From Octopus vulgaris (lineage: Eukaryota), in NCBI GenBank assembly GCA_951406725.2, contig OX597816.1, forward strand, positions 114,762,001 to 114,826,000: 64,000 nt of DNA, read 5' to 3'. This document shows, piece after piece, positions 928-61,517 of this stretch; the stretch's first letter is position 1, and every line of letters starts with the position of its first letter. A model generated the notes under the pieces. That model was given only the letters and a program-made list of their open reading frames with translations, was not told where the DNA came from and did no database searches. The translations under genes were made by a program, and so were the position numbers.

Positions 928-1520
928 TGTCACCATCTCTAGCTGAGCAGTTATTCTGAGCTGATGAAGAGAGATAACCCAGAAAACATTAGTACACAGA
1001 TATTGCTTTGGGCTGCGTGGTGACAATAAGCTTCCTTGTTCAAAAATGTAAGGATGCAGATAATGCTTCAATAGCCAGCTGGAGATGATGCTTTCTGGAG
1101 CTAAATAACAGAAACATTCATCCTAATCGGGACTACCACATTATGTTGGCAAACAATATTTACTCTGGAGTACTGTTACTGAATGTTTCTCATTCAGAGA
1201 TTTAGAATAATAATTTTTCTATTTATGATTTCAGTGACTGTGTGTCACTTTGAAAAGTATATATTTTGAACAAGAATTTAATGTTGCCATCTCTAGCTGA
1301 GCAATTATTCTGAACTGATGAAGAAAAATAACTCAAAAACCATTGGTATACAGGTATTGCTTTGGGCTGAGTGGGGACACTAAGCTCCCTTGTTTGAAAC
1401 TATAAGGACACAGATAGCGCATCAATAGCTAACTGGAGATGATGATGTTTCTTGGGGTTAAATAATAGTAACATTTGTCCTAATCAGGACTGCCACATTA
1501 TGTTGGCAAATAATCTATAC
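928..1520. repeat. Diverged direct duplication, ~235-bp units ~356 bp apart
   Basis: CCATCTCTAGCTGAGCA...CTGATGAAGA...CCACATTATGTTGGCAAA at 928-1163 and 1284-1520. Confidence 0.85.
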
Positions 1521-20925: not shown

Positions 20926-21000
20926 AGAGAGAGAGTGTGTGCAAACCTATTCATTTGAGTCTCCCTGAAGAAAACGCCTCGTATTTTTCATGTATATATA

Positions 21001-21208
21001 CTTTTATTAAAGCTGCAAAATTATCACAGAACTGTTACTCAGAGTTCCATGTTACCCTTCGTTGGACAATTTTGATAACAACAAACAGAAGCGTAAAACT
21101 CTGAGTAACAATTTTGTGATAATTTTGCAGCTAATAAAAGCACATTACTCTACATTTGATATTCGAGTATTATTTTTCTCACCTTGATTTGCACTTATGT
21201 ACTCACCT
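21001..21208 (+). mobile_element. Foldback insert with decayed hammerhead (same family as 26443-26658)
   Basis: Inverted repeat 21001-21140 (TGTTACTCAGAGTT / AACTCTGAGTAACA) followed by a tail shared with 26587-26658. Confidence 0.75.
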
Positions 21209-25919: not shown

Positions 25920-26442
25920 CATACATATACACTTACATACATAGACGAATGCATACAGTGTAGGTATGTATTCATATACATATGTAAGTATATGTATCCA
26001 AGTAAGCATATTTTTTTATATGAAAGTATATGTATATAAATGTATATAATCATAAATTGTTGCTATACAAACTAAGTACATTGCTGTGTATTTATGTATA
26101 TACTTAAACATGCCTAAGAAACATTTAAATATTGCTATCAAAATGCATAATATTATGAATGCATACGTATCACAAACCTTTATATGAATTACCTATAAAT
26201 ACATAGATATATACTTCTGCAAAAATATAAGCTTACATATCTATATAAAGACACATGTACAAATATATATACACACTCATTTATAGTTGTATATACATTC
26301 ACATATAAGTTATACATATATATATACAAAACACACTACACTACATATGCACACACACGCATTCTACCTATATGTACATACACATACAGAAATATCTTTA
26401 TATATTTGTATATTGGTTCATATATATATATATATATATATA

Positions 26443-26657
26443 CTTTATTTAAAAGTAGCAGAAATATAACAAAAGCTGTTACTCAGAGTTTCATGTTCCT
26501 GTTCGTCGGACAAAAGTGTCTGACGAATGGGAATGTAAAACTCTGAGTAACAGCTTTTGTGATATTTCTGCTGCTTTTAAATAAAGCATATTACTCTACC
26601 TCTGGTATTTGAGTACTCTTTTTTTCCACCTTGTTTCACATTTATGTGCTTACTCCA

Positions 26658-26658
<1 letters not shown>
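26443..26658 (+). mobile_element. Foldback insert: ~70-bp-arm hairpin with hammerhead motif plus tail, in (TA)n
   Basis: Hairpin 26443-26586 with a 4-nt loop. Consensus of the two arms is TGT CTGACGA ACG GGAA CGT GAAA CTCTGAG TA ACA. Confidence 0.8.
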
Positions 26659-26694
<36 letters not shown>

Positions 26695-39988: not shown

Positions 39989-39990
39989 TA

Positions 39991-40021
<31 letters not shown>

Positions 40022-40029
40022 CATGCATA

Positions 40030-40683
40030 TATGGGTATAGGATGTCACCAACAGTGCAAATAATATAAAATACGTAAGCAATGAAGAAAAAATGGAAAAC
40101 AGGACAAGTAAACACAGAGAAAGGACCCTTCATCAGTTGTTGGCTGTCTATCTACTCCTCATTACGAGCATTCAATGCCAATATGAGTCTTCAAAGACAG
40201 TTGCTCCCATAAATTCTGAAATAAAGTTTAGGATTTATGGGGGGTGAAAGTTGGGAACAAAAACAGGACAGTGGAGACATACAAGGAAACCGAGTGAAAA
40301 CAAACATGGAGGGTCGTTAGACTGGAACGAGAGGAAAATAGTGAACGCTGAGAGAAACATTTATTTTTGAAAAGATAAAAGAAAGAAGATACATCCGTGC
40401 AGGAAAAGAAAGCTGGTCACATGAGGAAAAGAAAGATGGACGATGGTCACATGTGAGCAGCGAGAGAGAGAGAGAGAGAAAGAGAAAGAGGGAGGAGAGA
40501 GGGAGAAAAATAGAAAGAGGGGAAGAGAGAAAGAGAAAATGGTGCAGGAGGGAGGGGTAGAAAAAGGGAATTAGAGAAAGATGGAGGAAGAAAATAGTAT
40601 AGAGTAGAGTCGCATCAAAAAGGTGAAGATAAACTTATTTGGAAATGGATGCATTGTATTCAATTAAATATAAATAATAAATT

Positions 40684-40725
<42 letters not shown>

Positions 40726-40885
40726 ATACATATATATGGGTACAAGACATCACCAACAGTGCAAATAACATGAAATATGTAAACAAACAAGTTAAATACA
40801 TAAACAACAAGAAAAAATGGAAAACAAGACAAGTAAACACAGAGAAAGGACCCTTCATCAGTTGTCGGCTGTCTATCTACTCCTT
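40030..40885 (-). repeat. Partial tandem repeat in (TA)n context
   Basis: About 130 bp (GGGTA..GACATCACCAACAGTGCAAATAA...AAGGACCCTTCATCAGTTGT..CTATCTACTCC) at 40030-40160 and 40735-40885. Confidence 0.75.
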
Positions 40886-46090: not shown

Positions 46091-46407
46091 GGAATGGCTG
46101 TGTGGTATGTAGCTTGTTTACCATCCACAGGGTTCTGGGTTCAGTCCCACTGTGTGGCACCTTGGGCAAGTGTCTTCTACTATAGCCTCAAGCCGACCAA
46201 AGCCTTGTGAGTGGATTTGGTAGACGGAAACTGAAAGAAGCCCGTCGTATATATATATATATGCGTGTGTGCATGTATGTTTGTGTGTCTATGTCTGTCC
46301 CCCTAGCATTGCTTGACAACCGATGCTGATGTGTTTATGTCCCCGTTACTTAGCGGTTCGGCAAAAGAGACCGATAGAATAAGTACTGGGCTTACAAAAG
46401 AATAAGT
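46091..46407 (+). mobile_element. SINE family B, 5' portion (its tail is inverted at 46470-46548)
   Basis: Matches B up to AAGAATAAGT; the missing tail appears in reverse orientation ~65 bp downstream. Confidence 0.8.
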
Positions 46408-46895
46408 GGTATAAACAATGCAATCTTTTCCTCAGGAAAGTGAAAAAAACGAAACTCGTCAATAAGACATTTTACTTGTTTCAGTTATTTGACTGCGGCC
46501 ATGCTGGAGCACCGCCTTTAGTCAAGCAAATTGACTCCGGGACTTGTTCAATAAGACATTTTAGCAAAATTTTTGCTAAAATGTCTTATTGACGAGTTTC
46601 ATTTTTTTCACTTTCCTGAGGAGAAGATTGCATTGTTTATACCATTTATTCTTTTGAATAGTATCAGTGGAATTTTCAAAACATGTGACGAAAGTAAAAA
46701 TATTTGATTACACCTGCGTTAAACTCCATTTATTTATTTATTCATATATTATTCAAAATATTCAACGTAAACACGAAGTTTCTACCTTTATAAACAAGGA
46801 GTTACAACACCTTTACTTGTGAGATTTTTACTGCCCTGGTAACTATTTATTTATTTTTTCCGTGTTAATTGTTAACAAGGTAAAAATACACTCAT
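46396..46895 (+). mobile_element. Foldback insert with decayed hammerhead at 46610-46695
   Basis: Inverted arms 46396-46473 and ~46577-46646. ACTTTC CTGAGGA GAAGATT...AATTTTC AAAAC ATGT GAC GAAAGT. Confidence 0.7.
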
Positions 46896-49302: not shown

Positions 49303-50125
49303 TGCTAATTAATTAACAGATAGAAAGATTACTCTTTGTGGTAGAGTTGATGTATCATTCTGAAAATTACTCAGTTGCCCCTCCCCCATATCTGTACTTC
49401 TCTATTTGTATATGTTTGTCTATGTATATTTTATATGTGTGTTAATACTGATGTAACATGTATAATATAACTAATGAAATTATGAAACAGCTCTAAATAT
49501 GTGGAATAAGCATCTCTTTCACATCACTTTTTTCATCTCCTTCATTCATATATGGATATATATCTGTATATATATGTGTGTGTGTGTGTATAGACAATAC
49601 ACACACACATATATATGTATATATATATATTTATATATACATATATTTACATATACATATACATATACATATGTGTGTGTCTGTGTGTGTGTGAAAGGAC
49701 AAGGAAATTAGAAATTATTGCACTTGACTTTTGAAGCTCCAATAAAACTATAGGATAATACATGAGCATTCAATTATGAATGTGGTGCATCTTAAAGTAG
49801 AAACAGCTGTAGGGTAATGAAGTTCATTATGTAATTTCTTATTACTGCTTTGTACTTGACTAACACTTTGTACTGAAGCTTATGTATACTGGATCTAACA
49901 CCAGGTTATTAGTATCACTAGGCCAAAGCAAAAAATAACACACACATATATGCATATGTATATATATATATATCATCGCGTTTAACGTCCGCTTTATAGC
50001 ATGGGTTGGACGGTTCAACTGGGGTCTGGGAAGCCCGAAGGCTGCACCAGGCCAGTCAGATGTGGCAGTGTTTCTACAGCTGGATGCCCTTCCTAACGCC
50101 AACCACTCCGAGAGTGTAGTGGGTG

Positions 50126-50590
50126 ATTTTATGTGCCACCGACACAGGTGCCAGACGAGGCTGGCAGACGGCCACGCTCGGATGGTGTTTTTTATGTGCC
50201 ACCGACACAGGTGCCAGACGAGGCTGGCAGACGGCCACGCTCGGATGGTGTTTTTTATGTGCCACCGACACAGGTGCCAGACGAGGCTGGCAGACGGCCA
50301 CGCTCGGATGGTGTTTTTTATGTGCCACCGACACAGGTGCCAGACGAGGCTGGCAGACGGCCACGCTCGGATGGTGTTTTTTATGTGCCACCGACACAGG
50401 TGCCAGACGAGGCTGGCAGACGGCCACGCTCGGATGGTGTTTTCTTATGTGTCACCGACACAGGTGCTAGACGAGGCTGGCGGACGGCCACGCTCGGATG
50501 GTGTTTGTTACGTGCCCTCAGCACGGAGGCCAGTCATTGCGGTACTGGCTACGGTCACGTTCGGATGGTTTTCTTATGTGCCACCGGCAC
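50126..50590. repeat. 63-bp tandem repeat in the RTE 3'UTR (about 5 near-perfect plus 2-3 degenerate units)
   Basis: ATGTGCCACCGACACAGGTGCCAGACGAGGCTGGCAGACGGCCACGCTCGGATGGTGTTTTTT starting at 50131, 50194 and onward. Confidence 0.95.
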
Positions 50591-50766: not shown

Positions 50767-52494
50767 CTAGTCTTGCCGGGTCTTCTCACGCACAGCATAC
50801 TTCCATAGGTCTCGGTCTCTAGTCATTTCCATGGTGAGACCTAACGTCCGAAGGTCGTGCTTCACCACCTCGTCCCAGGTTTTCCTGGGTCTACCTCTTC
50901 CACGGGTTCCCTCAACTGCTAGGGATTGGCACTTTCTCACACACCTCTCTTCATCCATTCTCGCCACATGACCATACCAGCGCAATCGTCTCTCTTGCAC
51001 ACAACAACTGATGCTTCTTAGGTGCAACATTTCTCTCAAGGTACTAACGCTCTGTCGAGTAAGTACACTGACATTACACATCCATCGGAGCATACTGGCT
51101 TCGTTCCTCACGAGCTTACGCATGTCCTCAGCAGTCACGGCCCATGTTTCACTGCCATGTAGCATAGCTGTTCGTACACATGCATCATACAGTCTGCCTT
51201 TTACTCTGAGCGAGAGGCCTTTAGTCACCAGCAGAGGTAAGAGCTCCCTAAACTTTGCCCAGGCTATTCTTATTCTAGCAGTTACACTTTCAGCGCACCC
51301 ACCCCCACTACTGACTTGGTCACCTAGATAGCGGAAACTATCAACTACTTCTAGTTTTTCCCCCCAGAAAGTGACAGAAGTTGTTTTCTGCAGATTTTCG
51401 GAGGTCAGTGCTCCAGAGCACCTGCCACATACAAAAACTATCTTCCCAGTTAGCCTACCTTTGACATTGCTGCACCTCTTATGTGTCCATAGCTTACACT
51501 GGGTACATCTTATAGAGTTTCTACCTACACCTTTTCTACAGATCGAGCAGGGCCATCTTCCTGATGATATTTGTGGGTTTTCTACCTTTCTACTTATTAG
51601 TACTTTGGTTTTAGCTAGGTTGACTCTAAGGCCCCTCGATTCTAAACCCTCCTTCCACACCTGGAACTTCTCCTCCAGTTCTGATAGTGACTCAGCGATT
51701 AGAGCGAGGTCGTCAGCATAGAGGAGCTCCCAGGGGCAACCTGTCTTGAATTCCTCCGTTATTGCCTGGAGGACTATGATAAATAGGAGGGGGCTGAGTA
51801 CTGAACCCTGGTGGACCCCAACCTCTACTTTGAATTCTTCTGTGTACATGTTGCCAACTCTAACCTTACTTACGGCATCTCTGTACATGGCTTGCACAGC
51901 CCTCACCAGCCATTCATCTATCCCTAGTTTCCTCATTGACCACCAGATGAGGGATCGGGGGACCCTATCAAAGGCTTTCTCCATGTCAACAAAAGCCAGG
52001 TACAGGGGCTTATCCTTGGCTAGGTATTTCTCCTGCAGCTGCCTTACCAGGAATATAGCATCAGTGGTGCTTTTCCCTGGGACAAACCCAAACTGCATCT
52101 CATCTAAACTAACTCTCTCTCTAATTAGTTGGGCTATGACCCTCTCCGTAACCTTCATTACCTGATCCAACAGCTTGATACCTCTGTAATTATTTGTATC
52201 CAGGGCATCACCTTTACCTTTGTAGCAGTTGACTAGTATGCTGCTACACCAGTCATTGGGTATGACTCCTTCGTGTATCACCTGGTTGACTATACGGGTG
52301 ACTAGGTTATAGCCGACACTGCCAGATATTTTGAGCATCTCTGCAGTAATTCCTGATGGGCCTGGGGCTTTCCCTGTCTTCATGCTTCTAATTGCCTTAG
52401 CTACCACGGAACTATCAACTCGGATAGCTGGTCCCTCTGTTGGGTCAACATTTGGCAGACTCTCTTTATCCCATTCATTTTCTTTATTCAGCAA
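50767..52494 (-). CDS. RTE reverse transcriptase (partial, no endonuclease domain) with a C4HC3 PHD-like finger
   Basis: GKAPGPSGI, NYRGIKLL, QFGFVPGKST, FVDMEKAFD, GVHQGSVLSP, LLYADDL and RRLRWYGHV..RGRGRPRKTW motifs. Confidence 0.93.
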   Translation of the reverse strand: MLNKENEWDKESLPNVDPTEGPAIRVDSSVVAKAIRSMKTGKAPGPSGITAEMLKISGSVGYNLVTRIVNQVIHEGVIPNDWCSSILVNCYKGKGDALDTNNYRGIKLLDQVMKVTERVIAQLIRERVSLDEMQFGFVPGKSTTDAIFLVRQLQEKYLAKDKPLYLAFVDMEKAFDRVPRSLIWWSMRKLGIDEWLVRAVQAMYRDAVSKVRVGNMYTEEFKVEVGVHQGSVLSPLLFIIVLQAITEEFKTGCPWELLYADDLALIAESLSELEEKFQVWKEGLESRGLRVNLAKTKVLISRKVENPQISSGRWPCSICRKGVGRNSIRCTQCKLWTHKRCSNVKGRLTGKIVFVCGRCSGALTSENLQKTTSVTFWGEKLEVVDSFRYLGDQVSSGGGCAESVTARIRIAWAKFRELLPLLVTKGLSLRVKGRLYDACVRTAMLHGSETWAVTAEDMRKLVRNEASMLRWMCNVSVLTRQSVSTLREMLHLRSISCCVQERRLRWYGHVARMDEERCVRKCQSLAVEGTRGRGRPRKTWDEVVKHDLRTLGLTMEMTRDRDLWKYAVREKTRQD

Positions 52495-52656
52495 ACTTTC
52501 ATAGTGGCATCTCCAAACCTCTCTCTTGCATCCTCATTTAGCGCAAGTGAACCATCATCCATGAACACACTTCTCTCCTATCACATCACGATCACACATG
52601 CAACACGAAATACCTCAAGTCTTTCATCCTCACGGCTCAGAACATTGCAAATTTTT

Positions 52657-52972: not shown

Positions 52973-53041
52973 ATCGTACTGAAGAGTCCACGGACGATGA
53001 TTACTTAAGTAGAATTGTTGATGACGAAACCGGTCTACGAT
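52973..53041 (+). ncRNA. Intact minimal type I hammerhead motif
   Basis: ATCGTA CTGAAGA GTC[34 nt]GAC GAAAC CG GTC TACGAT: perfect 6-bp stem I, all core residues present, GUC cleavage triplet. Confidence 0.8.
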
Positions 53042-57011: not shown

Positions 57012-57568
57012 TAGAACATTATTGGTGAATTGAAGAAATGGAGCTGAACGCAGATTGAACAGAAATCGTTTTATTTCATTCTACACGTGTTTCGAAAGGC
57101 ACAAATTACCAAAATCCGATGGAATAATGGGACCATATTGTGTCTTTCTCTTCAGGAAGAAAATGGGAAATCTGTTGGAAAAACAAAAACAGAACAGAGG
57201 CGGAGCAAAAACAAATCGAATTTTTGCTCCGCCTCTGTTCTGTTTTTGTTTTTCCAACGGATTTCCTATTTTCTTCCTGAAGAGAAAGACACAATATGGT
57301 CCCATTATTCCATCGGATTTTGGTAATTTGTGCCTTTCGAAACATGTGTAGAATGAAATAAAACGATTTCTGTTCAATCTACGTTCAGCTCCATTTCTTC
57401 AATTCACCAATAATGTTCTAATTTCAATTATCCGCACCAACGCACGGTTGCAACACCATATGGTTGTACCTCCAACCGTGCTGTTTTACTGCTGTGATTT
57501 TTGCTACTAAGGTATCGGTTAAACTTTTGATTAATCTACTACAAGATTATTCATCTTTCTATTTCACA
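57012..57568 (+). mobile_element. Foldback element: 200-bp-arm palindrome plus ~148-bp tail in (TA)n
   Basis: 57012-57211 is the reverse complement of 57221-57420 with 4 mismatches; 9-nt loop. Confidence 0.95.
57268..57359 (+). ncRNA. Type I hammerhead motif (mirror copy on the minus strand at 57073-57164)
   Basis: TTC CTGAAGA GAAAGACACAA[...]TTGTGCCTTTC GAAAC ATGT GTA GAA; the minus copy has the palindromic stem III ACACGTGT. Confidence 0.8.
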
Positions 57569-58275: not shown

Positions 58276-59216
58276 AAAATGACAAAGGAATAAATGCTTA
58301 TCTTATGATCTTTATTAGCTTACAACTGTTTCTACTATAAGATGCAATAGACTCATAGTTGAGTGCCTGAGAAACACCTTATAGTTTCATGCAACTGAAA
58401 TGCAATTCATTTGGGAAATGAATTGAAGCCTATGTATATTGAGGTCTATAACAGGCTATTAGTCTTGCAATGCCTAAGCGAAATACATATATACATAGCT
58501 TTTAGACTCAAACTGGAGAGCAGACTGTCAATTTCCCTATGTTATTCTTGTCTTTCCAGAGGTTGAAATCAGTTTGATCTCTATAAACACAGAGAAACAG
58601 TAAGCATCCTGTTAGGTCAAATCTAAAGGAATAAATATATGTTCAATATTTAAAACTATATTGATTTCTTTACTGAAGTGTAGTCTTGTTCGCTTGATCT
58701 ACAACACTAAATAACATACATATTGAGATAAGTGTGTGAGTCTAAGTTGATGTATCTTTAACACAGACATATATGGTATTGTGATAAACTTACAACTCTT
58801 TCTTTGAGATCTTTTTTAGTTCCATGAAGCATTTGATTGCAATGATGATAGTGTAACAAGGACAGAACTTAGAATATACAAGAACAGTTTATAGATATAG
58901 GCATATGCACAAACTCACAGATACATGCATACACGCACATGCAGAACAACTGCATATATGTATATGCATATCTATGTACTTAATTTTTATTTTCTTATTC
59001 TTTTACTTATTTCAGTCATTTGACTGTGGCCATGCTGGATCACCACCTTTAGGTGAGCAAATCTAGCCTGATTTATTCTTTGTAAGCCTAGTACTTATTC
59101 TATTGGTCTCTTTTGCAGAACTGCTAAGTTACAGGGACGTAAACACACCAGCATCGATTGTCAAGTGATGTTGGTGGGACAAATGCACAAATACACACAC
59201 ACACACACATATATAT

Positions 59217-59548
59217 TTTAGGACAATCAGTAAATTGTTATAATAGGATTCAGAGTTTCAAATGCCGGAGCTAAGAGCTACAATGCATTCTCATTGGCTA
59301 TTAATGGCAATAGATGATATAAAAAAAAACGTTGAATAAAAGGGAAGTTACTCTAATATGTAGGAAAATATATAAAAGATAAAAGATACACACAACCATA
59401 TTCTCACAAGATGTAGACATATATCCTCCTGCGTTCATAAGATCTACATACGTACACACACACACACACACACAAACATGTATATATACATGCCTATAAA
59501 CACACAAACATATATATGCATTTACGTACTCATACACATATCCACACA

Positions 59549-59588
<40 letters not shown>

Positions 59589-59702
59589 TACATATATATA
59601 CATATATATGCATGAAACTTCATCCTCATATTCCCATAGGTGTATGCTTACATATATATATTTAGACATTCATACATATAAATATATGCATATATATATA
59701 TG

Positions 59703-59744
<42 letters not shown>

Positions 59745-59852
59745 TATATATATACATATATACATATATACATACATACTCATACAGGTATCATTCACGT
59801 TTTCACATTCACCACATGTATGAATATACGTATATATACATCTGTACACAAT

Positions 59853-59901
<49 letters not shown>

Positions 59902-60540
59902 GTATGTATATACATATACACCCTCTTATCACACACCTACAACTGCAGATATAAGATTTACTGGAAGATCTTAACCGAGTGTAAACCTTATACCAACGGT
60001 TGTGTTATGTATGGTCATTGTGATATGTAAAGATGGCTCATCTGGAAATTTTCTTTGGACCAAGCTACATGTCTAAATTCAAGAACTGAACTTTTTGGAT
60101 CATGTCCACATATGACAAAATATCTGTTATGGTTTTGAACCCCCTAAGATTATGGATAGAATCTGCATTTCTACTATGTTCCCATGTCTTCACATTTGTT
60201 ATTGTTTTATATATTTTTCCTTTTTTGCTTTTTAATTGTGTGATTGTGTACGTGTGTGAGTATATGTATATGTAAGTATATATTAAATGTGTATGTGTGT
60301 GCATGTGTATATATGTGTACACGTATATGTTTATGAGTGTAGGACTGTGTCTGCCCATAAGTGCGACTTTCATGCACATGTCTCCTTCTTTTATACATAT
60401 ATGTATATGCATATGCTTGTATATCTGCGGTTGTGTGTGATAGGAGGGTGTATATGCATACATATATATATATCTGTGTACATATGTACATATATGTATA
60501 TTCATATATGAGGTCAGTGTGAATGCATGCCTGTATGAGC

Positions 60541-60578
<38 letters not shown>

Positions 60579-61012
60579 TTATGTATATTTATATGTATAA
60601 ATGTCTAAATATATATGTAAGCATATACCTGTATGTATATGAGGATGAAGTTGCATGCATATATACATATATATATGTATATGTGTGTGTGTGGATATGT
60701 TATGAGTACGTAAATGCATATTTATATATTTGTGTGTGTGTGTGCATGTACATATATATGTTTGTGTGAGTGTGTACTTACGTAGACGTTATGAACACAG
60801 GAGATTTTTATGTCTAAGTGTTGTGAGAATATGATTGCATGTATTATTTATCTTTTATACTTTTCCTACATATTAGAGTAACTTCCCTTTTATTCAACGG
60901 TTGTTTTTTATAGCGTCTTTTGTTATAATAACTGATGAAAATGCATTGTAGCTCTTAGCTACGGCATTTGAAACTCTGAGTCCTATTATGACAATTTACT
61001 GATTGTCCTAAA
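59217..61012. repeat. Large diverged inverted repeat (arms ~59217-59955 and ~60415-61012)
   Basis: TTTAGGACAATCAGTAAATTGT.ATAATAGGA.TCAGAGTTTCAAATGCC is mirrored at the right end; colinear matches continue through the microsatellites. Confidence 0.9.
60925..60989 (+). ncRNA. Type I hammerhead motif
   Basis: ATAATAA CTGATGA AAATGC[ATTGTAGCTCTTAGCTACG]GCATTT GAAA CTCTGAG TC CTATTAT; decayed mirror copy at 59243-59303. Confidence 0.75.
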
Positions 61013-61118
61013 CTATACATATATAAATTCTCTATTTACTTAATATTGAGGTCTCATTCACTTGTTGCCATTTTATATTCTTCTTCTTCTTCTTCTTCTT
61101 CTTCTTCTTCTTCTTCTT

Positions 61119-61190
<72 letters not shown>

Positions 61191-61517
61191 TATATACACA
61201 CACAACGAACTTACAGTTTCTGTCTACCAAATCCACTCACAAGGCCTTGGTCAGCCCGAGGCTATAGTAGAAGACACTTGCCCAAGATGCCATGTAGTGG
61301 GAATGAACCCGGAACCATGTGGTTGGTAAGCAAGCTACTCACAACACAGCCACTCCTGTACCTATGTAGGTGTATTTGTATAAACTTTTCTTGTACACTC
61401 TAAATTGTGTCCATTTTAGTACATAATCATCACTGCAAGTGATTCGTTGTGTGTGTGTGTATGTGTGTGTTATATTATATATGTCTAAATATATATTTAT
61501 ATATATAGTATCTCTCT

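What the first reader, a model, noticed from the sequence alone, without database searches (positions are those of the whole stretch)
59217..61080. 1.8-kb foldback whose arms end in hammerheads
Seen: arms of ~600-740 bp including mirrored microsatellites, with a ~460-bp spacer. The right arm ends in an intact-core hammerhead (60925-60989) with a nested hairpin in stem II. The left mirror has a broken core (CCAATGA) but keeps the G that restores stem I (AATAG/CTATT). Stem III ACTCTGAGT is the same as in the otherwise different 26443 family. Inference: this copy preserves more upstream sequence of the parent element, so the spacer (59956-60415) is the best lead to an autonomous partner.
Basis: partly seen in the sequence, partly recalled or inferred. 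Interest (0 to 1): 0.7.

Follow-up and report, generated by a model that had tools for sequence, protein, structure and literature searches.

The report
Fossil Penelope retrotransposon foldback with hammerheads
This is an old, broken copy of a known kind of jumping gene (a Hydra-type Penelope-like retrotransposon) that landed with a reversed partial copy of itself attached; it is mostly ordinary, except that the family's self-cutting RNA motif seems to carry an unusual letter in its core.

Summary
The foldback is real: arms 59218-59953 and 60420-61011 are 88-90% identical (K2P 0.11-0.13), and each ends in a type I hammerhead. It is the 3' end of a Hydra-clade Penelope-like element with an inverted 5'-truncated copy. 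The spacer encodes the last ~61 codons of a Hydra-type GIY-YIG endonuclease (phmmer E 1e-9; Hydra-specific CxH; 27 of 61 residues match Hydra-1_Obim) on the same strand as the right hammerhead. A ~65-nt tail sits on the right side only, and the insertion splits the (CA)n(TA)n tract of a host repeat. Public runs show the spacer, hammerhead end and tail belong to a multi-copy family. This architecture is published, and the scan noted similar cases in other genomes. The shared stem III occurs in 5 of 25 published Hydra families and does not link this family to the 26443 family. No autonomous partner above 44% identity was found. New family of a known kind; the family-wide U4C core is the only notable point.

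The parts
59001..59217 (+). Left half of an abundant host repeat, ending in the (CA)n(TA)n tract that is the insertion target (not part of the element)
   Evidence: BLASTN hits to many window copies; 8 copies picked because both flanks hit side by side all read straight across the tract
59218..59953 (-). Left arm: inverted, 5'-truncated copy of the element's 3' UTR, with microsatellites and a hammerhead copy, no tail
59237..59307 (-). Left hammerhead copy: core CCAATGA (C3 at 59297), G2.1 kept, stem III broken; predicted dead
   Evidence: folding z -0.43, 62 of 200 shuffles as good
59954..60138 (+). Last ~61 codons of a Hydra-clade PLE ORF (end of the GIY-YIG endonuclease; one internal TAA at the conserved Glu, first Cys of CxxC lost, N and CxH kept); 5' truncation and inversion junction at about 59954/59955
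   Evidence: relatives continue upstream of 59955 (loose ends)
60139..60419 (+). Start of the 3' UTR, inside the spacer
   Evidence: covered by diverged relatives up to 60245; 60246-60776 was skipped by the tool as repeats
60420..61011 (+). Right arm: microsatellite-rich 3' UTR of the forward copy, ending in the hammerhead and a short hairpin
   Evidence: 60749-61021 covered by relatives
60922..60992 (+). Type I hammerhead: 9-bp stem I with A2.1.C1.1 mismatch, core CTGATGA (relatives mostly CCG), long stem II with inner hairpin, near-palindromic stem III, GUC cleavage site at 60982
61012..61079 (+). One-sided tail of the element (~65 nt), absent from the left arm
   Evidence: loose ends at 61028/61030 in the four runs carry this sequence, and bin 61061-61078 is covered in all four; arm ends
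61080..61300 (+). (CTT)n(ATT)n expansion, then (TA)n and the right half of the host repeat (not part of the element)

Best explanation
A decayed insertion of a Hydra-clade Penelope-like retrotransposon (PLE), from a family distinct from the one published octopus family. Shown: a forward copy (59954-61079) made of the endonuclease C-terminus, 3' UTR, type I hammerhead and tail; an inverted, shorter, tail-less copy joined to its 5' end; insertion into a (CA)n(TA)n tract. Inferred mechanism: the element's GIY-YIG endonuclease cut both strands of the TA-rich target. Reverse transcription was primed twice on element RNA, once from the outer start (giving the copy with the tail) and once from the inner start about 65 nt upstream (giving the tail-less copy). 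Both cDNAs stopped early, after about 1.1 and 0.6 kb, and repair joined their 3' ends head to head. The arms then diverged neutrally (microsatellite slippage, CpG decay), for roughly 15-18 My if the host is an octopus and the published clock applies. In the parent RNA the hammerhead would work as a dimer or protein-assisted cutter of tandem transcripts. Here it is probably inert: there is no second copy on the same strand, and a read-through RNA would bury it in the arm-arm duplex.
For: Spacer frame 59941-60135: 10 of 21 phmmer hits span the query (best E 1.1e-9, 44%), with W, C, E, CxH invariant. 45 of 73 retrieved proteins hit the spacer by tblastn and none hit elsewhere in the window; 25 of the 31 retrieved proteins of 640 aa or more carry all five Hydra motifs tested. 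CxH after the conserved N is Hydra-specific in Fig. S7 of PMC8557442. 27 of 61 residues match the Hydra-1_Obim C-terminus without gaps (counted by eye). In relatives, 60011-60012 and 60028 carry the letters that give the missing Cys and Glu. 635-1152 contigs per run lay on the spacer and hammerhead end, most under 95% alike; they continue upstream of 59955 and into the right-hand tail. Empty sites in 8 of 8 chosen paralogues of the host repeat. Published match: inverted 5'-truncated copy, one-sided tail, (TA)n targets; Penelope-13_HM has an inverted copy with hammerheads on both strands. Opposite-strand hammerhead pairs 100-700 bp apart are in PMC4209133. Both-strand cutting and two RT starts that delimit the tail are in PMC11167929. 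62 of 65 hammerhead bases pair with the left arm in the whole-foldback fold.
Against: No RT sequence is left here, and no full-length ORF of this family was found (best identity 44%; 25-50% among 48 longer hits, the 50% one over 37% of the query). Pfam finds nothing in the six spacer frames, and GIY-YIG only below its cut-off in 3 of 10 homologues. 11 of 21 phmmer hits were unrelated multi-stretch matches (3 of the 4 scanned are ankyrin-repeat proteins). Rfam gives no hammerhead match. The tail (~65 nt) is longer than the 30-40 nt usually quoted. ORF end to hammerhead is ~790 nt against about 130-180 nt in three published Hydra consensus sequences (by eye), and the microsatellite block 60246-60776 could not be tested for family membership. 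No clear microhomology at the junction and no target-site duplication can be read. The two-primer step rests on an in vitro study of a different clade (Poseidon).
Confidence: 0.82

Rival explanations
1. A single 5'-truncated Hydra-clade copy inserted first, and the left arm arose later by a local inverted duplication (foldback repair or replication template switch) unrelated to retrotransposition.
For: Microsatellite-rich DNA is prone to template switching (general knowledge). The arms share the microsatellite block, which could not be shown to be family-wide.
Against: The left arm stops at the base of the tail and starts at the 5' truncation point, copying no host flank. The same layout (head-to-head arms, hammerhead-like ends, extra sequence on one side) recurs at 26.4 and 21.0 kb, and hammerhead-ended arms recur at 57.0 kb. 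It is the typical published PLE pattern.
Confidence: 0.1
2. A non-autonomous foldback element derived from a Hydra-clade PLE that is transcribed and mobilised as one 1.8-kb unit.
For: The small 26.4-kb and 21.0-kb foldbacks are two copies of one family with similar extent (74.5% over 216 columns), so repeated foldback forms exist in this genome.
Against: Relatives run on into ORF sequence upstream of 59955, not into an inverted arm (10 contigs in X1). Arm divergence of 0.11-0.13 with scattered decay fits one old event. No second copy in the window. Only 24 of 776 loose-end rows were shown, so this is not exhaustive.
Confidence: 0.05
3. The arms are long terminal inverted repeats of a DNA transposon (MITE or foldback type) that captured PLE sequence, and the hammerhead match is incidental.
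For: Long inverted arms in a TA-rich target; Rfam finds no hammerhead.
Against: The spacer is PLE endonuclease sequence collinear with the right arm. The family extends beyond the arm on one side only and keeps the hammerhead stems. Stem I and stem III sequences recur in published Hydra hammerheads. No transposase remnant or target duplication was seen.
Confidence: 0.02

Closest known systems
Hydra clade of C-terminal EN+ Penelope-like elements (Craig et al. 2021, PMC8557442), nearest named member Hydra-1_Obim
   Same: Endonuclease C-terminus with conserved E, N and the CxH motif; 27 of 61 residues identical to Hydra-1_Obim without gaps (by eye); type I hammerhead in the 3' UTR; AACGG a short way upstream of the hammerhead; (TA)n target.
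   Different: Different hammerhead and 3' UTR from Hydra-1_Obim (its stem III is ACCA-A-TGGT and its stem II is 7 bp with an 8-nt loop). Here: ~790-nt microsatellite-rich 3' UTR, two-part stem II, and C rather than U at core position 4 in most relatives. All 25 published Hydra hammerheads read CUGA, though the search descriptor required it.
Penelope-13_HM (Hydra clade; Repbase entry as listed in Files S1 and S2 of PMC8557442)
   Same: [quoted passage not shown]
   Different: That entry is a 3045-nt consensus with coding sequence for a partial protein; this is a 1.86-kb fossil with ~61 codons left and decayed hammerheads.
Hammerheads of metazoan PLEs (Cervera and de la Pena 2014, PMC4209133)
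   Same: Type I, long helix II, weak palindromic helix III suited to dimers; pairs on opposite strands a few hundred bases apart.
   Different: The distance between the two motifs is ~1.6 kb rather than 100-700 bp; 10.1-11.1 is A-U here and G in most relatives at 10.1; the core variant they report is U3-A8, not C4.
Non-LTR retrozymes (bioRxiv 10.64898/2026.07.22.740005)
   Same: Type I hammerhead of PLE origin in an animal genome.
   Different: Retrozymes are head-to-tail tandem repeats with hammerheads on one strand and no coding remnant; this is head-to-head with an ORF remnant.

Membership tests
Hydra-clade PLE | C-terminal GIY-YIG endonuclease ending the single ORF | tested here: met
   The spacer aligns to the last ~63 residues of endonuclease domains that follow an RT in full-length homologues. 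Only the C-terminal end survives; the GIY-YIG core itself is truncated away.
Hydra-clade PLE | [quoted passage not shown] | tested here: met
   N and CPH present and second Cys present; first Cys and E are mutated in this copy but present in most relatives
Hydra-clade PLE | RT with RWK and DKT motifs, CxCX5C linker, no CCHH | not testable with these tools
   The region is missing from this copy and no genome is held. 25 of 31 long homologues have the five motifs tested, but they are not this family.
Hydra-clade PLE | Canonical type I hammerhead in the 3' region | tested here: inconclusive
   The three-stem architecture is met and the right copy has a CUGAUGA core, but most relatives have C at position 4 and Rfam gives no match
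Hydra-clade PLE | Insertion into (TA)n | tested here: met
   (CA)n(TA)n on the left and (TA)n on the right after a trinucleotide expansion; 8 of 8 chosen paralogues of the host repeat are uninterrupted
PLE insertions in general | Inverted 5'-truncated copy at the 5' end and a tail at one end only | tested here: met
   the tail is ~65 nt rather than 30-40 nt
Hydra-1_Obim family | Shared 3' UTR and hammerhead sequence | tested here: not met
   Compared by eye with the published consensus; the 12-mer spanning GAAA and stem III has 0 occurrences in the text of the supplement
Naiad PLE | N-terminal endonuclease, RT at the C-terminus, no canonical hammerhead | tested here: not met
   The ORF ends in endonuclease sequence and a hammerhead follows
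Non-LTR retrozyme | Head-to-tail tandem units with hammerheads on the same strand | tested here: not met
   The two copies are on opposite strands; there is no third copy in the window
TIR DNA transposon or MITE | Symmetric ends with a target-site duplication, and transposase or host-like interior | tested here: not met
   One-sided tail and PLE ORF interior; a TA duplication cannot be excluded inside (TA)n
Active hammerhead ribozyme | Self-cleavage at the NUH site | not testable with these tools
   Needs an in vitro assay

The most novel reading that the evidence does not exclude
At least two Hydra-type PLE families in this genome (this one and the 26.4/21.0-kb family, whose three readable cores are CTG, CCG and CCA) amplified while carrying a hammerhead with a fixed U4C core. 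In the one passage I found, U4C is a viroid variant that considerably lowers cleavage in vitro (PMC3088659). These would be retrotransposons that spread with a damped, protein-rescued or repurposed ribozyme, invisible to CUGANGA descriptors, and they would give a natural test of whether hammerhead cleavage matters for PLE mobility.
Probability: 0.35. Interest if true: 0.5.

Novelty: new member of a known kind. Interest (0 to 1): 0.27.

Why it matters
As an object it is a neutral fossil of a published architecture. It adds a second Hydra-clade family for what looks like an octopus genome, a clade with about 27 listed families, and gives a probe (endonuclease end plus hammerhead) for finding the autonomous element. 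It shows that a 'perfect' hammerhead core in an old repeat can arise by CpG decay, so single copies should not be read as active ribozymes. If the C4 core is the true family state, descriptor-based surveys undercount PLE hammerheads, and the open question of what the ribozyme does for PLEs gains a natural low-activity variant to assay.

Tried and rejected
No genome is held for the window, so copy number, autonomous partner and orthologous empty sites could not be searched. The ungapped inverted-repeat finder listed 25 of 26189 pairs, mostly microsatellites, and this pair was not among them. Rfam on the whole window showed 150 of 518 matches, none a hammerhead; none in the focused scan either. 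Pfam on six spacer frames: 0 families. Word-indexed protein search with the spacer peptide: no candidate. No RNA holder was listed among the 24 runs; this says nothing about expression. 60246-60776 had no cover because the tool skipped repeats, so no conclusion is drawn there. Summed contig depth is not a copy number; I use it only to say 'many diverged copies'. The very high depth at 61022-61060 probably includes another repeat and was not used. A crude exon scan gave 13 candidates, one at 58560-58599 on +, none validated, so an intronic position is not claimed. The C4 variant in PLEs was not found in print by searches (1 paper held hammerhead with U4C; none held the CCG-core spellings), nor an octopus foldback description by searches; subscription papers, Repbase and Dfam were not searchable. 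The supplement of the O. vulgaris repeat annotation (PMC13282606) was not opened and may list this family. Look-ups of earlier findings by sequence and by place returned nothing.

Full report
Observation. The inverted repeat is real. Local alignment pairs 59209-59953 with 60420-61020, and BLASTN gives 80.3% over 527 columns, E 8e-137. Between the clean ends (59218 and 61011), 527 of 587 gap-free columns are identical (K2P 0.11). The outer non-microsatellite part has 205 of 233 (K2P 0.13) and scores 299 against a maximum of 30 in 300 shuffles. The length difference of the arms (736 against 592 bp) is almost all microsatellite slippage. The right arm holds a type I hammerhead: a 9-bp stem I (60922-60930 with 60984-60992) whose innermost position is an A.C mismatch, CTGATGA at 60932, a 6-bp stem II with a 5-bp inner hairpin, GAAA, a 3-bp stem III with a 3-nt loop, and a GUC site. 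The stretch folds better than 200 of 200 shuffles (z -3.6). The left copy keeps the G that closes stem I, but has CCAATGA and a broken stem III, and folds no better than shuffles. Rfam gives no hammerhead match (3 unrelated matches).

The spacer is coding sequence of a Penelope-like element (PLE). One + frame (59941-60135, one internal stop read as X) was searched by phmmer against 1.84 billion representatives: 21 hits. Ten span the query (best E 1.1e-9, 44%). The other 11 are short multi-stretch matches that I set aside; 3 of the 4 I scanned are ankyrin-repeat proteins. The ten align with invariant W, C, E, C, H and L; Pfam GIY-YIG appears only below cut-off in 3 of them. Longer relatives (3, 48) include ~700-aa RT-endonuclease proteins. 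25 of the 31 of 640 aa or more carry all five Hydra-type motifs I tested, and 45 of all 73 retrieved proteins hit the spacer by tblastn while none hit elsewhere in the window. A language-model look-up of one homologue gave clusters with HTH_animal and GIY-YIG families, the few recorded taxa being molluscs and echinoderms. Craig et al. 2021 (PMC8557442; passages, section 11 and supplement parts 2, 52, 53, 58, 59 read) define the Hydra clade by, among other things, CxxC and CxH motifs around the conserved E and N; other PLE clades have no residues in the CxH block. The spacer ends LNSRTE..GSCPH..K.LL like Hydra-1_Obim of Octopus bimaculoides: 27 of 61 residues identical without gaps, counted by eye. 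Its hammerhead and 3' UTR differ from those of Hydra-1_Obim, so this is a separate family. No closer protein was found; the autonomous partner remains unseen.

The family in public runs. 20 of 24 listed runs hold part of the stretch, 2 of them half of its words or more. I laid four (two of organism A, one each of B and C) on 59930-61078 at 80% likeness. 635 to 1152 contigs per run were laid, most under 95% alike. They cover 59950-60245 and 60749-61078; 60246-60776 was skipped as repeats. One piece with no differences (60100-60245) has depth 36 in X1, while summed depth over the spacer bins up to 60241 is 674 to 24959. The tool warns that this is no copy number, so I read it only as many diverged copies. 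Loose ends show relatives continuing upstream of 59955 (10 contigs in X1; by eye their letters extend the frame with residues like those of the homologues) and, after an indel near 61028, into the sequence at 61025-61058, which the left arm lacks. The element therefore has a truncated 5' end at about 59954 and a tail on the right only. In the 40 of 202 difference rows shown, relatives mostly have the letters that give the first Cys of CxxC and the conserved Glu where this copy has Tyr and a stop.

Target. Both flanks are halves of one abundant host repeat. In 8 window copies, picked because both halves hit side by side, the repeat reads straight through a (CA)n(TA)n tract. The insertion sits in that tract, as reported for nearly all Hydra families. 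A target duplication cannot be read inside (TA)n.

The core is probably not what it seems. At 60933 most relatives have C: 920 of 1456, 495 of 873, 1436 of 1985 and 155 of 183 summed depth (22, 25, 25 and 19 contigs). The loose-end consensus at 60902 ends in AATAG-CCG in all four runs. An ancestral CCG explains both arms with one CpG-type transition each (CTG right, CCA left); an ancestral CTG needs two changes in the left arm. CpG decay operates here: window CpG o/e is 0.42, and 5 of 10 T>C rows are in a TG context against a background of 50 of 236, though only 1 of 7 A>G rows is in a CA context against 25 of 158. The unrelated small foldbacks at 26.4 and 21.0 kb show the same trio CTG, CCG, CCA. 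U4C is a known natural variant: Perreault et al. 2011 (PMC3088659, passages) note that it considerably lowers activity in vitro yet allows viroid infectivity. Searches found no report of it in PLEs. All 25 Hydra families in File S2 read CUGA, but the descriptor demanded that.

How it most likely arose. Shown: forward copy with tail, inverted shorter copy without tail, TA-rich target. Published: PLE insertions often carry an inverted 5'-truncated copy and a tail at one end, and Penelope-13_HM is such a case in this clade. Opposite-strand hammerhead pairs were reported in 2014 (PMC4209133, parts 1-2 of 4 read). A Poseidon protein cuts and extends both target strands, starts reverse transcription at two internal sites that delimit the tail, and does not need hammerhead cleavage in vitro (PMC11167929, parts 1-2 of 4 read). 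Inferred: two primings, two early stops, and head-to-head joining of the cDNA ends; snap-back of one cDNA would give nearly the same product but would not by itself explain the clean loss of the tail. If the arms were identical at insertion, each has drifted 0.055-0.065. On the clock quoted for Octopus (JC 0.065 = 18 My; PMC13282606, part 1 of 3 and passages read) that is about 15-18 My. The octopus host is my inference from the microsatellite load, recalled repeat types and the nearest named relative; it was not tested. The ribozyme here is probably inert: weak stem III, no same-strand partner, a mismatch beside the cleavage site, and 62 of 65 of its bases pair with the left arm when the whole foldback is folded. 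Unexplained: the ~790-nt, microsatellite-filled distance from ORF end to hammerhead, against about 130-180 nt in three published consensus sequences (by eye). The block predates the copying of the two arms, but whether it is family-wide is unknown.

Other literature and earlier notes. The 2026 retrozyme preprint (10.64898/2026.07.22.740005, part 1 of 5 read) concerns head-to-tail repeats, which this is not. Two earlier findings of this scan in other genomes describe a PLE inverted pair and a Hydra-type hammerhead; they agree with the reading, were not checked, and are not counted as support.

Verdict. A real feature and a new family of a known kind. Interest 0.27; the family-wide U4C core is the one lead worth a genome-wide count and an assay.

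Noticed in passing
window 57012-57420 (+ about 60 nt on the right): Young foldback, 200-bp arms 98% identical with a 9-nt centre; each arm ends in a hammerhead-like motif (CTGAAGA, long stem II, palindromic stem III). A third family with the same head-to-head layout.
   Followed up: partly
window 26440-26665 and 20998-21206: Two copies (74.5% alike) of a ~150-bp palindrome with extra sequence on the right only; hammerhead-like halves with cores CTG, CCG and CCA and stem III ACTCTGAGT. No BLASTN similarity to the finding.
   Followed up: partly
window 52973-53041 (+): Solo canonical-looking type I hammerhead: 6-bp stem I, CTGAAGA, long stem II, GAAA, palindromic ACCGGT, GUC site.
   Followed up: no
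window 46390-46660: Another head-to-head inverted pair with CTGAGGA in each arm; one side is interrupted by a host repeat.
   Followed up: no
window 39990-40170 and 40720-40885 (-): Two direct copies about 725 bp apart containing CTGATGAAGGG with no downstream GAAA found; resembles a PLE pseudo-LTR half core.
   Followed up: no
window 50767-52533 (-): 588-codon open frame with RVT_1 (E 5e-32) and an inserted PHD/C1-like finger; looks like an RTE-type LINE (label recalled).
   Followed up: partly
window 50074-50470: Tandem array of about six 66-bp units from a common host repeat (seen in the ORF translations).
   Followed up: no
window 935-1070 and 1289-1420: Two diverged direct copies 354 bp apart containing CTGATGA without a hammerhead second half; possibly small structured RNA genes.
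   Followed up: no
window 58560-58599 (+): Candidate 40-nt exon with a good acceptor and GTAAGC donor, 620 bp left of the foldback; unvalidated. If real, the foldback would lie in an intron and form a long double-stranded RNA.
   Followed up: no
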